In this document: one piece after another, positions 1 to 18,602 of the stretch
Layout of the letters: the number at the start of each line of letters is the position of its first letter
Numbering within the stretch: the stretch's first letter is position 1
DNA from: a virus
Length of the DNA stretch: 64,000 bases
Strand: one strand, 5' to 3'
IMG/VR virus record: IMGVR_UViG_3300032313_000664
Location: 1 to 64,000 of that record
Translations under genes and position numbers: made by a program
Notes under the pieces: model-generated
What the model was told of the DNA's origin: nothing
Database searches by the model: none
Seen by the model: only the letters and a program-made list of their open reading frames with translations

Positions 1-35
1 AGTAGGCTTTCGATTGTGTATAGTTTGGTAGCCAT
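1..35 (-). CDS. 5' part of small hypothetical protein (MATKLYTIESL...), runs off window
   Basis: ATG at 35, SD-like GAAAGAAGG upstream, directly downstream of promoter at 71-92. Confidence 0.6.
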   Translation of the reverse strand, partial: MATKLYTIESL

Positions 36-70
36 TGGCAGACCTTCTTTCGTTTGTTGTTATGTATGGA

Positions 71-92
71 ATTATACACGAACCCACTGACA
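71..92 (-). promoter_or_regulatory. PafBC/RecA-NDp-like promoter TGTCAG-N10-TATAAT
   Basis: minus strand reads TGTCAG tgggttcgtg TATAAT, upstream of SD and ATG at 35. Confidence 0.7.
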
Positions 93-140
93 TTTTCACA
101 TTACTAGCCAGTAAATCCAAATACTGAGACGCTCAAGTCG

Positions 141-156
141 TGTGATAAGCATCACA
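141..156. promoter_or_regulatory. CRP/GlxR-type palindrome
   Basis: TGTGA taagca TCACA, perfect TGTGA-N6-TCACA. Confidence 0.65.
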
Positions 157-175
157 CCGAAATGTCCGTTTTGTC

Positions 176-290
176 TGTCAAATCGACACGCCGTAAATTT
201 CAGGGTTTTTTATAACAAATCCGTAACGACACGCCCGACGCCGCCACCTCTTGTGGGCGCAGCTGCCGATTTGTCAAATCGACACGCCGT
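176..290. repeat. 19-bp perfect direct repeat TGTCAAATCGACACGCCGT (176-194, 272-290) plus GACACGCC core at 228-235
   Basis: read directly; core recurs at 1158-1165. Confidence 0.85.
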
Positions 291-298
291 TTATTTAT

Positions 299-314
299 TG
301 TGAGTTATGTCTCA
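299..314. promoter_or_regulatory. CRP/GlxR-type site, 1 mismatch
   Basis: TGTGA gttatg TCTCA. Confidence 0.45.
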
Positions 315-505
315 TCTTCTAATTCTGCTAAATAATCTTGGTGTTCTACTAAACCAATCGCAAACGCAACGGGATCGCAACACTCTAAGATTTCGGCGGG
401 AGTAAAAGTTGAGTAACCGATTTTTACAGTTGGATAAATGTCATTTAGTAAATCAATAAAACTTTCTTTGATTTCTAAATCTTTTTCAAATTGTGATTTA
501 TTCAT
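305..505 (-). CDS. acidic hypothetical protein, 66 aa
   Basis: ORF track; GGGGGA SD-like; last gene of coupled operon. Confidence 0.8.
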   Translation of the reverse strand: MNKSQFEKDLEIKESFIDLLNDIYPTVKIGYSTFTPAEILECCDPVAFAIGLVEHQDYLAELEDET

Positions 506-611
506 TTAGTCCCCCGTTTTTTATGTCTTTGATTACGGCGATTAGTAGCGGAATAGTTACTCCCGCTAATAGTAATTGGACGGCGGTAGTTAGTAGGCGA
601 TTAGTAGTCAT
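498..611 (-). CDS. 37-aa single-TM microprotein (MTTNRLLTTAVQLLLAGVTIPLLIAVIKDIKNGGLNE)
   Basis: hand translation; TAATG overlap with upstream ORF. Confidence 0.7.
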   Translation of the reverse strand: MTTNRLLTTAVQLLLAGVTIPLLIAVIKDIKNGGLNE

Positions 612-766
612 TACTTATTCTTCTTTCTCTTATAAATCTTATAAGCGATTAGTGCTAGGGCGGTGATAATAATAGTGTGCCAAGGTAGATAGATAGACCC
701 TAGAAAACTATCTAACTCAAATCCGTATTCGCTAGTTATGTATAAATCAAATCCGTTAGGTATCAT
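611..766 (-). CDS. 51-aa membrane microprotein with basic C-tail
   Basis: hand translation MIPNGFDLY...IIITALALIAYKIYKRKKNK; TAATG coupling at both ends. Confidence 0.7.
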   Translation of the reverse strand: MIPNGFDLYITSEYGFELDSFLGSIYLPWHTIIITALALIAYKIYKRKKNK

Positions 767-939
767 TATTCGTATGCCTCCCAATCTAGTGTTAGTGATT
801 TAGATAGTTCATCTTCATCATAATCGGTAGCGCCTATTTCTAAGCCCTCTGCTAGTGCCTTGTTATAGGCTTCTTCTTCATCTAGATAGACATAAGCGTC
901 TGCTATATCCGCTTGGATAGTATCCCATTTAGTCATCAT
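766..939 (-). CDS. 57-aa highly acidic microprotein
   Basis: MMTKWDTIQADIADAYVYLDEEEAY...DWEAYE; SD GAGG; TAATG coupling. Confidence 0.75.
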   Translation of the reverse strand: MMTKWDTIQADIADAYVYLDEEEAYNKALAEGLEIGATDYDEDELSKSLTLDWEAYE

Positions 940-1091
940 TACTTTACCTCTACTTCTCTAATGTTATAAGTGAAACCCTTACCGAGTTTATTTAGTTCAG
1001 CGATTACCGCTAAGATTTCTTCAGGCTTACTAGCCTTTTGATTTACGGCTAATAGTTGAGAGCCTTGCCATAGTGTATAAGTGATAGTCAT
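939..1091 (-). CDS. 50-aa hypothetical microprotein
   Basis: MTITYTLWQGSQLL...IREVEVK; SD-like GAAAGAAG; first gene after promoter 1127-1148. Confidence 0.75.
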   Translation of the reverse strand: MTITYTLWQGSQLLAVNQKASKPEEILAVIAELNKLGKGFTYNIREVEVK

Positions 1092-1126
1092 TATCTGTTC
1101 TTCTTTCGTTAGTAGTTATAGTAGGA

Positions 1127-1148
1127 ATTGTAGCGCATAGCGCCGACA
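1127..1148 (-). promoter_or_regulatory. PafBC/RecA-NDp-like promoter TGTCGG-N10-TACAAT
   Basis: minus strand TGTCGG cgctatgcgc TACAAT. Confidence 0.7.
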
Positions 1149-1166
1149 TTGTATAGCGACACGCCG

Positions 1167-1271
1167 TTAGGCGTTAGTGTGATTATGGTCACACACGGAC
1201 TCGATTTCGTGTCCGAACTCCTCTACGAGTTCCTCGTAGATTTCGTCCATATAATCAAGATAATCGTTCAT
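1167..1271 (-). CDS. 34-aa acidic microprotein (MNDYLDYMDEIYEELVEEFGHEIESVCDHNHTNA)
   Basis: hand translation; SD GGGAG; follows 1276-1464. Confidence 0.65.
   Translation of the reverse strand: MNDYLDYMDEIYEELVEEFGHEIESVCDHNHTNA
1178..1193. promoter_or_regulatory. CRP/GlxR-type palindrome
   Basis: TGTGA ttatgg TCACA, perfect consensus. Confidence 0.65.
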
Positions 1272-1275
1272 TAGA

Positions 1276-1464
1276 TTACTCCCAACTTCTAGTAGTGGCA
1301 ATTACTACACGCTTGCTAGGCTTGTAGTTAGGTAACTCGGTTAGAGTTACTGTATCTATAACTCTAGTCTGTGAGACTAGGTCTAGATACTCGTTAGCGT
1401 ATTCCTCGCTAGGAACTAGGAGGGTAGTAGAGCCTAAGCCTACTGTGTATTTTAGTGAAAACAT
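1276..1464 (-). CDS. hypothetical protein, 62 aa
   Basis: ORF track; SD GAAAGGA. Confidence 0.8.
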   Translation of the reverse strand: MFSLKYTVGLGSTTLLVPSEEYANEYLDLVSQTRVIDTVTLTELPNYKPSKRVVIATTRSWE

Positions 1465-1515
1465 TTTGTTTTCCTTTCTTTATCAAGAACCTTTCTTGAT
1501 TTTCTTTATAGTATA

Positions 1516-1537
1516 ACTCTAGCAGGGGGGTCTGACA
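1516..1537 (-). promoter_or_regulatory. PafBC/RecA-NDp-like promoter TGTCAG-N10-TAGAGT
   Basis: minus strand TGTCAG acccccctgc TAGAGT. Confidence 0.65.
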
Positions 1538-1585
1538 TTTATCAAGTCGCAACTCGGTCAAATCGGACATTTTAGAAAAGTAATT

Positions 1586-1601
1586 AGTGTTTTACATCAC
1601 A
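1586..1601. promoter_or_regulatory. degenerate CRP/GlxR-type site
   Basis: AGTGT tttaca TCACA; same distance to its promoter as site 141-156. Confidence 0.45.
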
Positions 1602-1706
1602 TTTAGCCTATTTATGGGCGCACTATCGGACAAATCGGACATCCCCAAAGGGGTGTATCGTACAAATTAAAAATATATTAACATTTTGTCAAAATTGAAA
1701 AAGCTA

Positions 1707-1736
1707 TTGACTTTCGAAAAAACTAAATGTTATACT
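1707..1736 (+). promoter_or_regulatory. sigma70/SigA-type promoter
   Basis: TTGACT-N18-TATACT with TGn extended -10. Confidence 0.65.
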
Positions 1737-1742
1737 TGGGAA

Positions 1743-1885
1743 GGTTTCGGGGGGTTACACTAAGGAACTCAATATGCCAAGTAATTCTTGGAAGTTGGAT
1801 CCAGACTCTCCTCTATCTTTCCAAAAAGATTTTTTAAATTTGGGGGGTAGGGGGGGTTTGCTAAAAAATCTAATTTCCAAGTAAT
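1743..1885 (+). ncRNA. candidate structured RNA containing G6-TA-G7 tract
   Basis: long GU-rich hairpin 1787-1881; alternative stem 1827-1836/1862-1871; downstream of promoter. Confidence 0.45.
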
Positions 1886-2008
1886 CAATTAAAAGCAAAT
1901 ACAAATATATAATATATATAAGCAATAGGCAATAGCCAAAAAATATTTTATTAACATTTGAATATATCTAATATTGCAGTTGACTAGAATATATAGTACA
2001 ATAGAGAT

Positions 2009-2119
2009 ATGAAATGCAACTTCTGCGATAATGAAAAATACGTCCAACGATTAAATTCGAGGGGGGCACTAGAGAACTTCTGTGTCGAATGCATTTCCAA
2101 ATTAAGGGTGGTATACTAA
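2009..2119 (+). CDS. 36-aa Zn-ribbon microprotein (CNFC...CVEC)
   Basis: hand translation; two CxxC. Confidence 0.65.
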   Translation: MKCNFCDNEKYVQRLNSRGALENFCVECISKLRVVY

Positions 2120-2123
2120 GATC

Positions 2124-2291
2124 ATGAATAACATATCAACTAACCTAGCTCCATGTGATGTATGCAATTTATCACACTGGGGAGTAACAATGGATGATCA
2201 AGGAATCTTGTCTCCATACTGCACATATTGCTCTGGGGATTATGCCCATACTAAAGAAGCAAGAAATGCTGCAGAAGGTATCAATCCATAA
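2124..2291 (+). CDS. 55-aa Zn-ribbon microprotein (CDVC...CTYC)
   Basis: hand translation; two CxxC. Confidence 0.65.
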   Translation: MNNISTNLAPCDVCNLSHWGVTMDDQGILSPYCTYCSGDYAHTKEARNAAEGINP

Positions 2292-2314
2292 TATTATAGT
2301 CGACTAGGATTATT

Positions 2315-2458
2315 ATGCATGATCATGAAAATATTGTTCTAGCCACAGGTTCAGGAATAACTGAGATGCAGCTAATGTGGATTTTAATGGGAGCAATGGC
2401 TATTCACCATATTTGGATGTGGTGGAAGATGAAAAAGAAAAATTGTAACTGCAAGTGA
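2315..2458 (+). CDS. 47-aa membrane microprotein
   Basis: MHDHENIVL...LMWILMGAMAIHHIWMWWKMKKKNCNCK; SD AGGA. Confidence 0.65.
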   Translation: MHDHENIVLATGSGITEMQLMWILMGAMAIHHIWMWWKMKKKNCNCK

Positions 2459-2532
2459 ACTGGTTACAAGCAACAATAATATTTGGACCTATATTGGTTC
2501 TATTAATAGCATTTTGGGATGATATAAAATGA
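2455..2532 (+). CDS. 25-aa membrane peptide
   Basis: GTG start in GTGA overlap; NWLQATIIFGPILVLLIAFWDDIK; ends in ATGA overlap. Confidence 0.5.
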   Translation: MNWLQATIIFGPILVLLIAFWDDIK

Positions 2533-2675
2533 AGAAGATCTATGCTTTAATTGCGTTAACTGCGACAGCAGTCTTCTCAGGTCTAGCTTTGTCTAAATTT
2601 TTAAATTGGGCGGGAAAGCAAGAAGATATCTTTGATTTTGACCTAAATGAAGATATAGACAATGAACAGTTCTAA
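2529..2675 (+). CDS. 48-aa signal-anchored peptide with acidic tail
   Basis: MKKIYALIALTATAVFSGLAL...DIDNEQF; ATGA coupling. Confidence 0.65.
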   Translation: MKKIYALIALTATAVFSGLALSKFLNWAGKQEDIFDFDLNEDIDNEQF

Positions 2676-2742
2676 ATCATTCCTATGGTCATTGCTAATC
2701 ATCCTTGGTGCATACTACTCATTGGTGTATATAACTCTATAG
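2662..2742 (+). CDS. 26-aa membrane peptide
   Basis: MNSSKSFLWSLLIILGAYYSLVYITL; overlaps previous stop. Confidence 0.45.
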   Translation: MNSSKSFLWSLLIILGAYYSLVYITL

Positions 2743-2963
2743 GGTAAAATCCCTAGCTTTTTCTCTCCCGCCCTTTTAAGGGTTCAAGTATCGGAGATAC
2801 CAAATATGACCCAGTAGGGCTTTAGAGGCCTCATAGAGGCTGTTTAAGGCATATTCTGCAAATGATCACATATGGGAAAGAGGGTGTTCTATTTTCGGCG
2901 CACTTTTTTCGCACTTTTTGCACTATATGTCCATATTGCCCGTATTATATAAATACTATCTAT

Positions 2964-3008
2964 AAAAAGAAAAAATCCCATTCAGAGGCGGATCCGAATG
3001 GGCTTTTC
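2964..3008. terminator. probable bidirectional intrinsic terminator
   Basis: CCCATTC/GAATGGG stem with A-tract left and T-tract right, between convergent genes. Confidence 0.55.
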
Positions 3009-3083
3009 TAGTGTATTACTACACATTATATAGGGAGACATGGTGGTGTCTCTAACCTACACATCTTTATTGTAGAATATGTT

Positions 3084-3395
3084 TTATTCTAAGTCAACTA
3101 CTTTCTCATCATTTTTTGATATGCTTTCTACAATGGCCTCAGCTGGAGGATAGCTAGTAATAAATCCATAAGGATCCTTGCTTGTCTCAGGATTGTTCCC
3201 CAGGTATTCAAGATACTCTGGAAGATTAGTAATTTCAGCCAAAAGAACCATAAGGTCTACGCATCTTTTATGGGTAAACATATGTGTAGTATGACACCTA
3301 TATGCTTCATCTACATTTGGGCAAACTTTAAGTATTTCCATAAGTCTAAAAACAATCTTATGGGCCATCTCCATTTGTTCTTGACTATAAGCCAT
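3084..3395 (-). CDS. hypothetical protein
   Basis: ORF track; overlaps upstream gene in operon. Confidence 0.75.
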   Translation of the reverse strand: MAYSQEQMEMAHKIVFRLMEILKVCPNVDEAYRCHTTHMFTHKRCVDLMVLLAEITNLPEYLEYLGNNPETSKDPYGFITSYPPAEAIVESISKNDEKVVDLE

Positions 3396-3630
3396 CTACT
3401 TCATCCTTTATCTCAATTGGAGTATATGCAGGTTCAGGCCCAAGCAAGAATCCTTTTTCGTGATATCCAACCATCTTTGATGTTTCTTCCCCTCCGACAA
3501 TTTTGTCAGCAATTAAAGAAAGAAGATCGTATATTCTATGCAGCATAATGTAGGTAACCATTGGAAGGTTCTCTTCAATAGTTCCAGCATCAGATATTAT
3601 AGCCCCATCAGGCAATTGTGATTCATCCAT
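3385..3630 (-). CDS. hypothetical protein
   Basis: ORF track; SD GGAGG. Confidence 0.8.
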   Translation of the reverse strand: MDESQLPDGAIISDAGTIEENLPMVTYIMLHRIYDLLSLIADKIVGGEETSKMVGYHEKGFLLGPEPAYTPIEIKDEVDGL

Positions 3631-3796
3631 TTTTATTTATCCCTCCATCAGTATTAGGGAAGATTACAGGCATCTTCCATTCGTATGTTTCAAATCCAGA
3701 AGACTCATATTGCATCTCTTCTGCCGCCGACGCACTTTCTGTTGCAATTTGTAGTCCTTGACCACAGCTACAATTTCCACATCCACATTCTGACAT
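3623..3796 (-). CDS. 57-aa protein with N-terminal CGCGNCSC motif
   Basis: hand translation MSECGCGNCSCGQGLQIA...; fills the gap, TAATG-coupled to 3796-4497. Confidence 0.7.
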   Translation of the reverse strand: MSECGCGNCSCGQGLQIATESASAAEEMQYESSGFETYEWKMPVIFPNTDGGINKNG

Positions 3797-4497
3797 TAGT
3801 TGTATTCCTTTCTGTTCCAGTATTTGTTTTTATACCAACCAATAATATGTTTTACCGACTCGCTACGTGCCAACTTTGCTTCAGACAAAAGATTAGTATT
3901 TCTTTCAAGTTTCCAAGGCTCTGATTTAATCGGTATAATTTGTGCAATAGGAGTGCCAGCTTTAATTATTCCTTCAAATCCCATTTGAAGAAGAAAAGGC
4001 ATTTTTCCACCATTCATTGGATAGTTTGCATCAACCACGCCAGACATTGTTCTAAATGGAAGATCATCTCTATTTAATGGATGAGTTATCAATAAGCTAT
4101 ATCCGTCTTCTACTTTTAGTATTTGTTTTGTGCTCCATGAAAAATGATTTGAGTGAAAGCCTTGAGGAATTGGTAATGTTGGCACCATTCCTTTGTCTCT
4201 TTCAATAACAAAATCTGTTTCTGTATAATCAGAGTCAAAAAAGTTCCAGCTTATTCTAGGGCCTCCTGGAGTTTGTTCAACAAGAAGATCTACAGGAGCT
4301 GGAATGTAATATCCAGTTAAAAAGGCATCCATAAAAGGAGCACAACTTTTTACTGTTATTGTAGATGGAGAAATGCTTAGCTTTCCTCCTGAAAACTTTT
4401 CTATTTTTTTAAACCAATCAGGAATTACATTTTTCATGTACCCTATTGGTTCAAATACTGGGTGATATAAATCGTATTCTAATTTTTTAGATTTCAT
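3796..4497 (-). CDS. DUF6065-like / dUTPase-fold-like protein, paralog 1
   Basis: KSCAPFMDA..GY, HPLNR, GIIKAGTPIAQIIP motifs shared with 17172 and 17818 genes. Confidence 0.6.
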   Translation of the reverse strand: MKSKKLEYDLYHPVFEPIGYMKNVIPDWFKKIEKFSGGKLSISPSTITVKSCAPFMDAFLTGYYIPAPVDLLVEQTPGGPRISWNFFDSDYTETDFVIERDKGMVPTLPIPQGFHSNHFSWSTKQILKVEDGYSLLITHPLNRDDLPFRTMSGVVDANYPMNGGKMPFLLQMGFEGIIKAGTPIAQIIPIKSEPWKLERNTNLLSEAKLARSESVKHIIGWYKNKYWNRKEYN

Positions 4498-4696
4498 TTT
4501 TAATCGCTTCTACTATTTTGCTGTAAACTTCTAATCCTATGTTGTTTCTATATTCACAAGACAAACAATATAAAAATATATTATTGTCTAAATCCATGTT
4601 AGATTGAAGAGAGCCCTGATCCATTGGACATTCAAGTCTAGGAACAAGGCCCTCTTCTGATAAGGCTATGTACTTAGATACATACTGTATCTGCAT
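4487..4696 (-). CDS. small Zn-binding protein
   Basis: CPMD...CLSC. Confidence 0.75.
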   Translation of the reverse strand: MQIQYVSKYIALSEEGLVPRLECPMDQGSLQSNMDLDNNIFLYCLSCEYRNNIGLEVYSKIVEAIKNEI

Positions 4697-4701
4697 TTGA
4701 C

Positions 4702-5253
4702 CTACTTTTTCTGATCAGTCGGGAATTGCAATAGCCATTCCTGCGCTTTTGGGGTCATACCCTTCCAAGCTGACCAATCAATACCGCCATTGGTCATATA
4801 ATACGTTATCTCTGCGTTTGTTACTGGGTCGAATAACTCTCTGTTACTCTTTAGGTCGAATTTCTCAAGTCTTTCAGGACCAAGATTTCCGATCATGTTG
4901 ATCTGGAATATTCCGTAGGAACTATCTCCAGTATTCTTATTCCCGTTATATGCAAGCGGTCTTCCGTTAGATTCACGCTTTGCTATTGACCAGGCTTTCT
5001 TAAGGCCTGACCCTTCGAATCCTACAGTCTCAAGTAATAGTTTTAACTCTTTGTCTGTAAGCATCTCAGATGGCTTGTAAATCTCTTTACTAAAACTATC
5101 TAAGACTTCTTGCATTAATTGGGCTTCAGTTTTCACTAAAGGTTTTACTACTAAGGCATTTGCAGGCTGTACAGGAAACAAAAATAATGTTATCATTACT
5201 ATTGTAACCAGGTTATGAGCCAAATCACTTACCTGTTGTTTTATTTTCTCCAT
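4702..5253 (-). CDS. lysozyme-like lytic transglycosylase with N-terminal signal/TM segment
   Basis: IAKRESNG catalytic Glu, SYGIFQIN, DPVTNA, WSAW; start moved to 5253 by SD GAGGAGG. Confidence 0.8.
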   Translation of the reverse strand: MEKIKQQVSDLAHNLVTIVMITLFLFPVQPANALVVKPLVKTEAQLMQEVLDSFSKEIYKPSEMLTDKELKLLLETVGFEGSGLKKAWSIAKRESNGRPLAYNGNKNTGDSSYGIFQINMIGNLGPERLEKFDLKSNRELFDPVTNAEITYYMTNGGIDWSAWKGMTPKAQEWLLQFPTDQKK

Positions 5254-5338
5254 TGGCATTTCCTCCTCTAGAGATAACGAACTATAATAATAACATTGAA
5301 TACCTAAGCCTGTCAAGCCAGTCAACCAGAAAGAAAAC

Positions 5339-6340
5339 ATGAAAATATCTTATTATACGATTAAAGCAGGGTTAAACCCAGCTGTTGGCTTTGGTTATGC
5401 TGGAAAGAATATAGTTAAATCATTAAATAATTTAGGTCATTATGTTACATATGCTGATCCTAAAGCAGATATCCAAATTAATTTTACACAACCGCAACAT
5501 TTTAAAATGCATAGAGGGCAGTATCAAATTGGGTATACTCCTTGGGAATCAACATCGATGAGACCAGATTGGGTTGAAAGATTTAATTATTGCGACGAAG
5601 TCTGGACAACATCAGATTGGTGTGCTCAAGTATTTAAAGATAATGGAATAACAAAACCAATATATGTTTACCCTCACGGCATTGAAGATTTTTGGAAACC
5701 AAAAAGAAGAGTGCTTAATGATGGCCAGCCAATAAAGTTCTTACATATTGGAGAACCTTCACCAAGAAAAGACGGACAATTAGCAGTAGATACTTTTGCT
5801 AAAATGTTTGGAAATAATCCTGACTATCAGCTTACCCTAAAATGTCATAATTCTAATACTACAAGAATGTATAATTCAAATAACGAATTTGTTACACCAG
5901 ATGCTATTTATTCAAATATAAAAATTATAACTGATGAGTATACAGAACAACAGCTTTTAAGTTTATATTATAGTCATCATGTTCTTTTGTATCCAACCTG
6001 GGGAGAAGGCTTTGGCTTTATTCCACTTCAAGGACTTGCAACAGGTATGCCTGTTATATCAACATACGACTGGTGTCATTATAAAAATTATTTAGGCCCG
6101 CTTAAATTAAAATCTAAACTAACGGATGAGACTTTACCAAAGTCTGTAGGAGATGACTATATTGGAAAAATGTTTAAGCCAGATGCAAAACATCTAGAAG
6201 ATCAAATGTATGAAGCAGTAATTAACTTTAAAGCTTATTCTGGTTATTATTTTGCTCAAGCAAATCAAATACATAAAGATTATAATTGGGATCAGTTGAC
6301 TAAGAATGCATTTGAAAGATTGTCTAAAAAGTTTTCCTAA
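5339..6340 (+). CDS. GT4 (GT-B) glycosyltransferase
   Basis: TPWEST, PRKD, EGFGFIPLQGLATGMPVI motifs. Confidence 0.9.
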   Translation: MKISYYTIKAGLNPAVGFGYAGKNIVKSLNNLGHYVTYADPKADIQINFTQPQHFKMHRGQYQIGYTPWESTSMRPDWVERFNYCDEVWTTSDWCAQVFKDNGITKPIYVYPHGIEDFWKPKRRVLNDGQPIKFLHIGEPSPRKDGQLAVDTFAKMFGNNPDYQLTLKCHNSNTTRMYNSNNEFVTPDAIYSNIKIITDEYTEQQLLSLYYSHHVLLYPTWGEGFGFIPLQGLATGMPVISTYDWCHYKNYLGPLKLKSKLTDETLPKSVGDDYIGKMFKPDAKHLEDQMYEAVINFKAYSGYYFAQANQIHKDYNWDQLTKNAFERLSKKFS

Positions 6341-6429
6341 CCCCTTCCCCTATAAAGCCTTCTTTGGTAGAATAGGATCTTCACACTAAATTTAAATTAA
6401 CCGCTAGGCGGAGAAACAGGTACTCTAAA

Positions 6430-8364
6430 ATGTCTAAGACTATTGCAAACCCATACGAAAATTTTATTGCGTTATCTCGATATGCAAGATGGATATCAGA
6501 AGATAATCGTCGTGAGACATGGGGAGAAACAGTAGATAGATATTTTAACTTCATGCTTGGTCATTTAGAAAAAAACCATAATTATATTCCAAATGAGAAG
6601 CTTGTTGCGGAATTAAAAGAGTTTGTCTTTGAACGAAATGTCATGCCATCAATGCGTTCTGTTATGACTTCAGGAGCAGCATTGGAAAGAGACAATGTAG
6701 CTGGATATAACTGTGCTTTCTTACCAGTTGATTCCCCACGTTCATTTGATGAGACAATGTATATCCTTATGTGCGGTACAGGTGTAGGATTCTCCGTTGA
6801 GTATAAGTACATCAATAAGCTTCCTGCCGTCCCAGAAACTTTAGAGAAGTCAACTACAGTAATTACAGTAGAAGATTCAAAGCAAGGTTGGGCTAAGGCA
6901 TACCGTGAGTTGCTAGCACTACTTTGGTCTGGACAAATTCCAGCAATTGATGTTTCTAAAGTGAGACCAGCAGGAGCAAGACTTAAGACAATGGGTGGAA
7001 GATCTTCAGGCCCACAGCCACTTATTAACTTGTTTGATTTTACAATTGCAAAGTTTAAGAATGCTACAGGAAGAAACCTAAAGCCAATCGAATGCCACGA
7101 CATTATGTGCAAGATTGGTGAAGTAGTTGTTGTAGGAGGAGTTCGTCGTTCAGCAATGATTTCTCTTTCTAATATTAATGATATTGAAATGGCACAGGCA
7201 AAGTCAGGTAACTGGTGGGAAGCAAGCCCACAACGTGCCTTGTCTAATAACTCTGTTGCGTATTCACGCAAGCCAGAGATGGAGCAGTTTATTGCAGAAT
7301 GGAAATCTCTATATGATTCAAAATCAGGAGAACGAGGCATATACAATGTGGCCGCAGCTCAAGCCCAAGCAGCCAAGTATGGAAGAAGAGATCCAGATAT
7401 ACACTATGGAACTAACCCGTGTTCAGAGATTATTCTACGTCCTTACCAGTTTTGTAATCTTTCAGAAGTCGTACTACGTGAAAATGATACAAAGAAAGAT
7501 ATTGAACGCAAAGTAGAACTAGCAACTATTCTTGGAACCTGGCAGTCTACTCTTACAGACTTTAAGTATCTACGTAAAATTTGGAAAGATAACACAGAAG
7601 AGGAACGCCTGCTAGGAGTTTCTTTGACTGGACAGTTTGGGCATAAGTTTATGTCAGGCAAACAAGATTTGGTTGCGCTAGAGTCATTTTTGATGACTCT
7701 TAGAGAAGCAGCAAGAGCAAAGAATAAAGAAGAGGCTGGGAGAATTGGGATTCCTGAGTCTGCCGCTATTACTTGTGTAAAGCCTTCTGGAACAGTATCT
7801 CAATTGGTCGGGGTATCTTCAGGAATGCATGCTTGGCATTCTCCATATTATATTAGAACTGTTCGTGGTTCAAAGGGAGATCCAATTTCTACCTTCCTTA
7901 AAGAGGTGGGGATTCCAGTAGAAGATGATGTAATGAAGCCAAACGATACATACGTATTTTCATTCCCAGTAAAGGCACCAGAAGGTGCAATTGTCAGAAA
8001 TGATCTAACAGCTACTGAGCACCTTAATATTTGGTTGGTTTACCAACGTGCATGGTGTGAGCATAAGCCTTCAATTACAGTTTCTGTAAAAGAAGATGAA
8101 TGGATGGAAGTTGGAGCTTGGGTATATAAGCATTTTGACGAGGTGTCTGGAATTTCATTCTTGCCACACTCAGATCACTCATACAAGCAGGCTCCTTATC
8201 AAGAAGTAGATAAGGCTGAATATGATGCACTTGTTGCAAAGATGCCTAAAGAAATTCGTTGGGAAGATTTGTCATTCTATGAAACAGAAGACGGCACATC
8301 TACTAATGCTACCCTTGCCTGCAGTTCAGACGGAAATTGTGAGCTAGTAGACATTTCTGCCTAA
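6430..8364 (+). CDS. nrdJ: class II (adenosylcobalamin-dependent) ribonucleotide reductase
   Basis: YNCAF, GGVRRSAMI, TNPCSEI, CNLSE, TCVKPSGT, C-terminal C..C; monomeric RTPR-like. Confidence 0.93.
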   Translation: MSKTIANPYENFIALSRYARWISEDNRRETWGETVDRYFNFMLGHLEKNHNYIPNEKLVAELKEFVFERNVMPSMRSVMTSGAALERDNVAGYNCAFLPVDSPRSFDETMYILMCGTGVGFSVEYKYINKLPAVPETLEKSTTVITVEDSKQGWAKAYRELLALLWSGQIPAIDVSKVRPAGARLKTMGGRSSGPQPLINLFDFTIAKFKNATGRNLKPIECHDIMCKIGEVVVVGGVRRSAMISLSNINDIEMAQAKSGNWWEASPQRALSNNSVAYSRKPEMEQFIAEWKSLYDSKSGERGIYNVAAAQAQAAKYGRRDPDIHYGTNPCSEIILRPYQFCNLSEVVLRENDTKKDIERKVELATILGTWQSTLTDFKYLRKIWKDNTEEERLLGVSLTGQFGHKFMSGKQDLVALESFLMTLREAARAKNKEEAGRIGIPESAAITCVKPSGTVSQLVGVSSGMHAWHSPYYIRTVRGSKGDPISTFLKEVGIPVEDDVMKPNDTYVFSFPVKAPEGAIVRNDLTATEHLNIWLVYQRAWCEHKPSITVSVKEDEWMEVGAWVYKHFDEVSGISFLPHSDHSYKQAPYQEVDKAEYDALVAKMPKEIRWEDLSFYETEDGTSTNATLACSSDGNCELVDISA

Positions 8365-18507: not shown

Positions 18508-18602
18508 TAATTTTTATAGTATAATTGTAAGTGTCAGTATAAAAAAATAAAATTAATCAGTTAAACAGCCGTTGCTTAACTTATTGTAAGAAAGGCTTTA
18601 AG

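What the first reader, a model, noticed from the sequence alone, without database searches (positions are those of the whole stretch)
71..1537. Phage leftward promoters match the host PafBC (RecA-NDp) DNA-damage consensus
Seen: all three promoters in front of the leftward microprotein operons read TGTC(A/G)G-N10-TAnnnT with exact 10-nt spacing. They are TGTCAG..TATAAT (92-71), TGTCGG..TACAAT (1148-1127) and TGTCAG..TAGAGT (1537-1516), each followed by SD and ATG. I did not see this element at the structural-gene promoters. Established: TGTCGG-N10-TA-N3-T is the actinobacterial RecA-NDp motif, used by the ssDNA-activated WYL-domain activator PafBC through sigma adaptation. Inference: the phage wires these putative early genes into the host LexA-independent DNA-damage response. 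ssDNA from processing of the incoming genome, or from host stress, would then switch on takeover or anti-defence genes.
Basis: partly seen in the sequence, partly recalled or inferred. Interest (0 to 1): 0.85.

Follow-up and report, generated by a model that had tools for sequence, protein, structure and literature searches.

The report
Phage promoters copying host PafBC boxes
An uncultured lake phage of actinobacteria drives a block of tiny genes from promoters built like the ones its likely hosts use, through the DNA-damage alarm protein PafBC, to switch on recA, so it probably borrows that host switch, though nothing has been tested at the bench.

Summary
The three sites (92-71, 1148-1127, 1537-1516, minus strand) are the surviving edge of a promoter array cut off by the contig end.

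In relatives the motif TGTCRG-N10-TAnnnT occurs 66 times on the gene strand and 2 on the other. Other spacings give 0-3. Four complete and one 85%-complete relative carry 15-24 co-oriented copies, nearly all in a block of about 10-15 kb.

The motif equals the published PafBC consensus (PMC8635444). I found the same motif upstream of recA in 61 of 80 actinobacterial genomes, and in 28 of 30 from the order of a Candidatus Planktophila genome. PafB is present in 61 of 61 genomes of that order.

The phages encode no WYL protein, sigma region 2 or integrase. Cultured Streptomyces-phage relatives lack the array.

Dependence on PafBC, early timing and the ssDNA trigger remain inferences. This scan noted the same thing before on other DNA: 258 notes in at least 194 genomes. 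My three searches found no paper linking PafBC to phage promoters.

The parts
1516..1537 (-). Promoter P3: TGTCAG at 1537-1532, 10-nt spacer, TAGAGT at 1521-1516; TG two bases upstream of the -10
   Evidence: matrix score 30.4 bits
1276..1464 (-). Small ORF, 62 aa, first gene behind P3 (ATG at 1464); no family hit
1167..1271 (-). Small ORF, 34 aa (ATG at 1271); it holds a perfect CRP-type palindrome at 1178-1193
1127..1148 (-). Promoter P2: TGTCGG at 1148-1143, 10-nt spacer, TACAAT at 1132-1127; the identical site occurs in relatives L015 and L017
   Evidence: 23.7 bits
939..1091 (-). Small ORF, 50 aa, first gene behind P2
766..939 (-). Small acidic ORF, 57 aa
611..766 (-). Small ORF, 51 aa from the ATG at 766, hydrophobic C-terminal half
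498..611 (-). Small hydrophobic ORF, 37 aa
305..505 (-). Small ORF, 66 aa; matches PHROG families 37123, 9396 and 9294, all of unknown function
   Evidence: E 2.7e-9
223..247 (-). Terminator-like hairpin closing the P2 unit
71..92 (-). Promoter P1: TGTCAG at 92-87, 10-nt spacer, TATAAT at 76-71; the orthologous site in L008 differs only in the spacer
   Evidence: 29.4 bits
1..35 (-). Start of the next small gene (ATG at 35), cut by the contig end. In relative L008 it is 69 aa, and at least five more promoters of the same kind follow

Best explanation
The three sites are working promoters. They are the remnant of an array of roughly 15-20 in the complete phage. They belong to the PafBC-dependent (RecA-NDp) class: host RNA polymerase with the housekeeping sigma reads the -10 box, and the host PafB-PafC heterodimer, once loaded with single-stranded DNA, sits between sigma region 4 and the TGTCRG box at about -26 and stands in for the missing -35 contact. 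Each promoter drives one to three tiny genes through a short leader of about 25 nt and a strong SD. The phage thereby couples one whole block of small genes, on the strand opposite to its structural and replication genes, to the host's ssDNA alarm.

Shown: the motif, its fixed geometry, strand, position and conservation; the same box at recA in likely hosts; PafBC in those hosts; no phage WYL or sigma gene.

Inferred: that PafBC actually binds and is required; that the block is early; that the ssDNA comes from infection (processed genome ends, phage nucleases or replication); and that the host is a member of Candidatus Nanopelagicales.
For: (1) Geometry. Spacing N10 gives 66 gene-strand matches against 2 on the other strand, and other spacings give 0-3. 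In five relatives of 104-112 kb the counts by strand are 15/1, 16/0, 1/19, 0/19 and 24/0, against 0-3 for the backwards-read control. Nearly all lie in one block of about 10-15 kb. That block is on the strand opposite to the portal gene in 5 of 5, as it is here.

(2) Identity with the published consensus tGTCgg(N10)tA(N3)T, with the upstream box at -23 to -28, an invariant GTC and no -35. In 54 unique phage promoters TGTC and the final G are invariant, and no column from -12 to -4 exceeds 0.39 bits.

(3) My own host data. 61 of 80 actinobacterial recA loci carry the motif within 400 nt upstream on the coding strand. Spacings 8, 9, 11 and 12 and the reverse strand give 0.

(4) Likely host lineage. 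The phage comes from freshwater and lake metagenomes. A Candidatus Planktophila genome (order Candidatus Nanopelagicales) has adjacent PafB-like and PafC-like genes: E 3e-34 to 7p5x_AY and 9fnd_X, and E 4.5e-25 to 7p5x_AX. The two arginines that read the GTC triplet are kept, within an identical RMFERDK stretch. PafB is found in 61 of 61 genomes of that order, and the motif lies upstream of recA in 28 of 30.

(5) Shared details that the search pattern does not demand. Counting the T of TGTC as position 0, positions 6-9 are mostly T, G, G, C in phage and hosts alike. TG at positions 13-14 occurs in 36 of 53 phage promoters and 15 of 21 unique recA promoters of that order, but in 0 of 53 from other actinobacteria. 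Scored against the phage matrix, the spacers of that order reach 1.91 against a null of -6.81 +/- 3.49; 8 of 5000 column permutations reach this value.

(6) No phage factor was found. WYL: 0 in this contig and 0 of 5 relatives. Sigma region 2: 0 of 5.

(7) The motif is not the host's ordinary promoter. There are only 3-16 matches per 1.0-1.8 Mb host genome, no more than the control.

(8) Weak: contigs from RNA libraries of four studies cover the block. Contigs cannot show starts or strand, and DNA can be present in such libraries.
Against: There is no experiment and no mapped transcription start.

The phage -10 boxes are near-consensus (mostly TAtAAT or TACAAT), and 36 of 53 have TG upstream. 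Such promoters may fire without any activator.

About half the promoters show a weak T-n-G-A-A-A bias where a -35 would lie, and P3 can also be read as TTGATA-18-TAGAGT.

The base before TGTC is A in 43 of 53 phage promoters but T in 20 of 21 recA promoters of the candidate host order. The host -10 is mostly TACCTT.

The whole-site matrix score of the host promoters was not significant per sequence (z 1.25 and 0.73).

The host recA promoters are orthologues of one another, so the spacer match rests on few independent sequences.

The Streptomyces phages BillNye and Yaboi (portal 58% identical) have 0 and 1 match, although Streptomyces recA carries the box.

A phage that needs an ssDNA-activated factor for its first genes would be taking a risk.

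The host is inferred. No host-derived gene was found, and the phage G+C of 38.7% is well below the 47-52% of the recA loci.

Dozens of small phage proteins have no known fold, and one of them could read the box.
Confidence: 0.6

Rival explanations
1. A phage-encoded factor of unrecognised fold, possibly carried in the virion or made from an earlier promoter, reads the TGTCRG box in the manner of T4 MotA/AsiA. On this view the likeness to the host PafBC box is convergence or competition for the same site.
For: Most genes of the block have no family hit. A 48-aa HTH protein (contig 82494-82640) gives sub-threshold sigma region 4 and HTH hits. Relatives infecting PafBC-positive Streptomyces lack the array, so the trait follows the phage clade.
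Against: No WYL, sigma region 2 or single-subunit polymerase gene was found in this contig or in four complete relatives (the control for one search did not ring, so that result is uninformative). The match to the host box extends to spacer positions and to the TG typical of one host order, which a foreign factor would not need. The first promoter to fire needs a factor that is already in the cell.
Confidence: 0.15
2. They are ordinary constitutive promoters of the extended -10 type, read by the SigA holoenzyme alone. The TGTCRG box then serves another purpose, for instance as a decoy that soaks up PafBC, a repressor site or a recombination signal.
For: The -10 boxes are near-consensus, and TG sits upstream in 36 of 53. 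The phage block holds 16-20 boxes in a block of about 10-15 kb, against 3-5 pattern matches in a whole 1.0 Mb host genome. Strain variants diverge right next to P2 (loose ends at 1107-1124 and 1155).
Against: The box is invariant while the TG is not. Its distance to the -10 is fixed to the nucleotide, 66 matches against 0-3 at other spacings, which points to a protein contacting both DNA and polymerase. A pure decoy or recombination site would not need that register.
Confidence: 0.15
3. The array is a damage-induced switch of a temperate phage, so that prophage induction runs through PafBC instead of LexA and RecA.
For: PafBC answers to DNA damage. Many temperate phages tie induction to the host damage response (general knowledge).
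Against: No tyrosine integrase (0 of 5) and no serine recombinase (0 of 6). The backbone is related to virulent Stanwilliamsviridae of 127-131 kb. The phage has its own replication genes: DnaB, primase and RecA by family search, plus a 1089-aa ORF that I read by eye as a DnaE-type polymerase.
Confidence: 0.03
4. The three sites are chance matches to a loose pattern.
For: 4 window matches against 1.15 expected, and 4 of 100 shuffles reach 4.
Against: Strand, position, spacing and conservation across relatives.
Confidence: 0.01

Closest known systems
PafBC-dependent (RecA-NDp, recA P1-type) promoters of Mycobacterium and other Actinobacteria, read by sigma adaptation (PMC8635444, PMC11804915; passages read)
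   Same: The same box, the same 10-nt distance to a SigA-type -10, and no conserved -35. The same box sits at recA in the candidate hosts, which encode PafB and PafC.
   Different: These promoters are on a virulent phage, in an array of 15-20 driving tiny genes of unknown function. Their -10 boxes are stronger than the host's and often carry an upstream TG. Dependence on PafBC is not shown.
T4 middle promoters (MotA box plus -10; sigma appropriation by AsiA and MotA), as contrasted in PMC8635444
   Same: A phage regulon whose promoters replace the -35 with another box, read by a protein that bridges DNA and sigma region 4.
   Different: In T4 the factors are encoded by the phage and remodel sigma. 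Here no phage factor was found, and the box is that of a host activator.
Host-takeover arrays of small early genes with many promoters, such as the SPO1 terminal redundancy and T5 pre-early genes (recalled, not looked up)
   Same: A dense run of promoters, each driving one to three very small genes, on one arm of a large virulent phage genome.
   Different: Those use standard housekeeping promoters with a -35.
Phage genes controlled by the host SOS repressor LexA (recalled, not looked up)
   Same: A phage plugs its genes into a host DNA-damage regulator.
   Different: LexA is a repressor and those cases are mostly temperate phages. Here the regulator would be an activator and the phage has no integrase.

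Membership tests
PafBC-dependent (RecA-NDp) promoter class | Upstream box tGTCgg with an invariant GTC at about -23 to -28 | tested here: met
   TGTC and the final G are invariant in 54 unique phage promoters. The definition comes from PMC8635444.
PafBC-dependent (RecA-NDp) promoter class | Exactly 10 nt between the box and a SigA-type -10 (TAnnnT) | tested here: met
   66 matches at N10 against 0-3 at N6-9 and N11-14. The same exclusivity holds at host recA: 61 of 80 at N10, 0 at other spacings.
PafBC-dependent (RecA-NDp) promoter class | No conserved -35 element | tested here: met
   Information is at most 0.39 bits per column from -12 to -4. Individual promoters such as P3 can still be read with a 5-of-6 -35.
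PafBC-dependent (RecA-NDp) promoter class | The host encodes the PafB-PafC heterodimer with the DNA-reading arginines | tested here: inconclusive
   Met for the candidate host order: 61 of 61 genomes have PafB, a Planktophila genome has the adjacent PafB and PafC pair, and R46 and R50 are kept. The host itself is inferred, not shown.
PafBC-dependent (RecA-NDp) promoter class | PafBC binds, and transcription depends on PafBC plus ssDNA or DNA damage | not testable with these tools
   Needs in vitro transcription, pull-down assays or a pafBC mutant.
Stanwilliamsviridae-like actinophage | Structural genes related to cultured members | tested here: met
   Portal 58-59% identical over 94-100% of its length to Streptomyces phages BillNye, Yaboi and others. 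Only the portal was compared. Family rank was not assessed.
T4-type sigma appropriation | A phage-encoded activator and co-activator | not tested
   The MotA and AsiA families were not searched. The WYL and sigma region 2 searches were negative.

The most novel reading that the evidence does not exclude
A virulent phage runs a whole regulon on a host sigma-adaptation activator. PafBC, loaded with ssDNA made during infection, would act as the phage's timer. At the same time the 15-20 strong boxes per genome copy would outnumber the handful in a 1.0-1.8 Mb host genome and draw PafBC away from the host damage regulon. This would be the first phage use of sigma adaptation, and a phage-borne sponge for a DNA-damage regulator in one of the most abundant freshwater bacterial groups.
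Probability: 0.35. Interest if true: 0.85.

Novelty: new variant of a known kind. Interest (0 to 1): 0.7.

Why it matters
PafBC and sigma adaptation are known only as a host stress response. A phage promoter class of the same build would show that viruses exploit this route.

It would give a natural set of about a hundred promoter variants for dissecting what PafBC reads.

It would offer a sequence signature for assigning hosts to uncultured actinophages whose hosts lack CRISPR. The Nanopelagicales are reported to lack it (PMC10202952, text read).

The host order can now be grown and has yielded phage isolates (same paper), so the idea can be tested.

Tried and rejected
Identity and host.
- Megablast of 8 kb against cultured phages found no match.
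- No tRNA genes.
- WhiB gave only a sub-threshold hit inside a nuclease gene.
- The DUF401 transporter's look-alikes in the Atlas are viral clusters.
- The PASTA protein found no relative in genome contigs. It is only 25-34% identical to proteins of the candidate host order, with a match in 46 of 61 genomes. That gives no host signal.
- The phage RecA search returned only close phage relatives: the 120 best of 4230 matches, all 90% identical or more. In the PDB it is no closer to mycobacterial than to E. coli RecA.
- Cluster look-up of 10 RecA representatives gave one name, from Bacteroidales.

Statistics against my reading.
- The window count alone is weak.
- Whole-site matrix scores of host promoters were not significant per sequence: z 1.25 for the candidate order and 0.73 for other actinobacteria.
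- Host genomes hold no more pattern matches than the backwards control.
- Four matches clustered in one host contig (G007:C15) do not precede known repair genes. The genes there are phosphatase-like, deacetylase-like, a MoxR-VWA pair and a small zinc-ribbon ORF.
- Sigma-70-type sites are not enriched in bases 1-6500: 29 against 24.3 +/- 4.8.

Coverage of relatives.
- 13 of the 20 loci show no motif. They reach only 0-3.2 kb beyond the 233-aa gene, whereas the first hit lies 1.4-3.1 kb beyond it in the seven loci with hits.
- Three related contigs (G001-G003) have 0-2 matches. They end 0.4-1.8 kb beyond that gene, before the block.

RNA.
- The bins with little or no cover (1601-2200 and 5401-6000) are not used as evidence.
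- Contigs show no starts, ends or strand.

Other.
- The RNA_pol family search found nothing, but its control rang nowhere, so it is uninformative.
- Structure prediction and complex prediction were not used.
The PafBC regulon tables of the cited papers, which might list prophage genes, were not seen.
Full report
What is in the window. Read on the minus strand, bases 1-1537 hold three intergenic sites of the form TGTCRG, 10 nt, TAnnnT, at 92-71, 1148-1127 and 1537-1516. Each is followed by a purine-rich SD and an ATG, at 35, 1091 and 1464. Behind them lie seven complete small ORFs of 34-66 aa and the start of an eighth, which the contig end cuts off. None has a Pfam hit among those tested. Only the 66-aa one matches PHROG families, all of unknown function. 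A terminator-like hairpin at 247-223 closes the middle unit.

The window is bases 1-64000 of an 89,838-nt IMG/VR contig with 38.7% G+C, estimated 83% complete.

Is it more than chance? The window count alone is weak: 4 matches against 1.15 +/- 1.16 expected. The relatives settle it.

Twenty related viral contigs were found through the 233-aa protein at 3796-4497, at 82-91% identity. Seven of them reach far enough downstream and carry 2-15 copies each, all on the gene strand. The other 13 end 0-3.2 kb beyond that gene.

Over 303,329 nt, spacing N10 gives 66 gene-strand and 2 other-strand matches, while spacings 6-9 and 11-14 give 0-3 each.

Five further relatives of 104-112 kb, four of them 100% complete and with portals 59-86% identical to this one, carry 15/1, 16/0, 1/19, 0/19 and 24/0 matches by strand. 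The last count includes four copies repeated in the terminal repeat. The backwards control gives 0-3. Nearly all matches lie in one block of about 10-15 kb. That block is on the strand opposite to the portal gene in 5 of 5, as it is here.

A weight matrix trained on the first set finds 15, 18 and 16 sites on the gene strand and none on the other in three loci that were not used for training. In this contig it finds only the three reported sites plus one weak intragenic hit.

Of 102 unique promoters, 93 are followed by an SD, a start codon and an ORF of at least 25 codons, at a median of 31 nt after the -10.

In relative L008 the orthologue of P1 is followed by at least five more such promoters. 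The window therefore shows only the edge of the array.

What the motif looks like. In 54 unique promoters TGTC and the final G are invariant. The fifth base is A in 37 and G in 17. Counting the T of TGTC as position 0, the next bases lean to T, then G or C, then G or C. Positions 13-14 are mostly T and G. The -10 is mostly TAtAAT or TACAAT. No column where a -35 would lie exceeds 0.39 bits.

Comparison with what is known. Passages of PMC8635444 give the in vivo PafBC consensus as tGTCgg(N10)tA(N3)T. The 3' part is the SigA -10, the 5' part lies at -23 to -28, there is no -35, and the GTC triplet is read by PafB residues R46 and R50.

Is the host an actinobacterium with PafBC? The portal is 58-59% identical to those of Streptomyces phages of the family Stanwilliamsviridae. 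The DNA recurs in freshwater and lake metagenomes; the listed runs come from 12 studies. The phage group is abundant there: the 120 best RecA matches are all 90% identical or more, on contigs of up to 112,751 nt.

To reach host genomes I picked an actinobacterial-type RecA from the representative search. P0224 scores 615 bits against chain 1ubc and 477 against the E. coli-type chains. That 1ubc and 1g18 are mycobacterial RecA is my recollection. With P0224 I fetched 80 recA loci, all from Actinomycetota by their record titles.

61 of the 80 carry the motif within 400 nt upstream of recA on the coding strand. The same stretches give 0 matches at spacings 8, 9, 11 and 12 and 0 on the reverse strand.

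One locus is from an uncultured Candidatus Planktophila, order Candidatus Nanopelagicales. Its genome has two adjacent WYL genes. These match PafB and PafC of the mycobacterial complex and the two halves of the fused Arthrobacter PafBC. The PafB-like protein keeps both DNA-reading arginines within an identical RMFERDK stretch.

In 61 genomes drawn evenly from that order, PafB is found in 61. Of the 30 recA loci fetched, 28 have exactly one motif copy, 225-290 nt upstream of recA. In most it is directly followed by a palindrome of the kind I recall as the actinobacterial LexA box.

Does the phage copy that lineage's box? Columns that the pattern does not fix also agree. T, G, G, C at positions 6-9 is the majority in the phage, in the candidate order and in other actinobacteria. 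A at position 4 is the majority in the phage (68%) and the candidate order (81%), while other actinobacteria prefer G (58%). TG at positions 13-14 is found in 36 of 53 phage promoters and 15 of 21 unique recA promoters of the order, but in 0 of 53 from other actinobacteria.

Scoring only the 10-nt spacer with the phage matrix gives 1.91 for the order against a null of -6.81 +/- 3.49; 8 of 5000 column permutations reach it. For other actinobacteria it gives -4.06 against -7.20 +/- 2.10, reached by 337 of 5000.

Several caveats apply. The host sequences are orthologues of one promoter. The whole-site score per sequence was not significant. The base before TGTC differs: A in the phage, T in hosts. 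The host -10 is mostly TACCTT.

Rivals. A phage-encoded reader is not excluded, but none was found. WYL gives 0 in this contig and 0 of 5 relatives. Sigma region 2 gives 0 of 5. The only sigma-related signal is a sub-threshold region 4 or HTH match in a 48-aa ORF.

The larger genes of the block in relatives belong to the GP88 and DUF932 families, not to regulators.

The temperate-phage reading is unlikely: no tyrosine integrase in 0 of 5 and no serine recombinase in 0 of 6.

The box is not the host's everyday promoter. There are 3-16 matches per host genome, no more than the control.

The strongest rival is that the near-consensus -10 boxes with an upstream TG fire without help, and that the box adds regulation or merely binds PafBC.

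Against a universal strategy, the cultured Streptomyces relatives have 0 and 1 match, although Streptomyces recA carries the box.

Expression. Contigs from four RNA libraries of four studies cover the block and the lysozyme-like gene at 4702-5340. This is weak. Contigs cannot show starts or strand, and DNA may be present in such libraries.

Novelty. Three full-text searches were run: RecA-NDp with phage; PafBC with 'phage promoters'; and PafBC with actinophage, mycobacteriophage or prophage induction. The first gave 5 papers, none about phage promoters to judge by their listings. The second gave 0 papers. In the third, none of the 15 listed papers contains the word PafBC.

Within this scan the same reading was reached before on other DNA: 258 notes in at least 194 genomes. 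I treated those notes as leads and ran the tests above myself.

Verdict. The promoters are real and are members, by sequence, of the PafBC class. Their dependence on host PafBC is the best-supported mechanism (about 0.6) but is untested.

Noticed in passing
window 141-156 and 1178-1193: The only two perfect matches in the 64-kb window to the CRP/GlxR-type palindrome TGTGA-N6-TCACA both lie in this 1.5-kb block, upstream of P1 and P2. Their distances to the promoters differ: the palindrome centres are 56.5 and 37.5 nt from the T of TGTC. With up to 2 mismatches the window total is below chance: 25 against 35 expected.
   Followed up: partly
window about 290-265, 192-165 and 1168-1150 (minus strand): A repeated word of the form ACGGCGTGTCG, twice continued by an inverted repeat TGTC-N5-GACA, sits upstream of P1 and P2. 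Related words (TGTCCGATTTG) lie upstream of P3. These could be operator sites.
   Followed up: no
window 1538-2123: The divergent gap between the block and the rightward genes carries several runs of six to seven C on the minus strand and a good rightward sigma-70-type promoter at 1707-1736.
   Followed up: no
window 5287-5316 (minus strand): A near-perfect housekeeping-type promoter (TTGACA, 18 nt, TATTAT, with TG) lies in front of the lysozyme-like gene (SLT_3 domain, 4702-5340). The phage therefore uses both promoter classes. RNA-library contigs are deepest over this gene.
   Followed up: partly
window 1107-1124 and 1155: Contigs of related strains break away from this sequence right beside P2 (loose ends). 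This suggests that gene cassettes are exchanged at the conserved promoter and leader sequences.
   Followed up: no
window 18532-18553 (+): A fourth strict match to the pattern lies in an intergenic gap before the 723-aa gene. Its spacer is A-rich and it scores under 12 bits with the promoter matrix, so it is probably chance.
   Followed up: yes
contig 79062-80066, 80878-81669, 81931-82497 and 87022-87429 (L003): The phage encodes its own RecA, a PD-(D/E)XK/Cas4-like nuclease, RuvC and a staphylococcal-type nuclease. Phage recombination and DNA breakdown could supply the ssDNA that activates PafBC.
   Followed up: no
L119-L147 (recA loci of the order of G004): In most of these genomes the PafBC-type recA promoter is followed at once by a palindrome of the kind recalled as the actinobacterial LexA box. 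Activator and repressor sites would then abut.
   Followed up: no
L229 (G007:C15:3000-19000): A freshwater actinobacterial genome has four copies of the motif within 13 kb. They stand in front of a phosphatase-like gene, a deacetylase-family gene, a MoxR-type ATPase with a VWA-metallopeptidase partner, and a small zinc-ribbon ORF, beside a NERD-domain protein. This may be a PafBC-controlled stress or defence island.
   Followed up: partly
L009:14376-15095 and L015:18275-19282: The largest genes inside the promoter block of relatives belong to the GP88 (PF17338) and DUF932 families.
   Followed up: no
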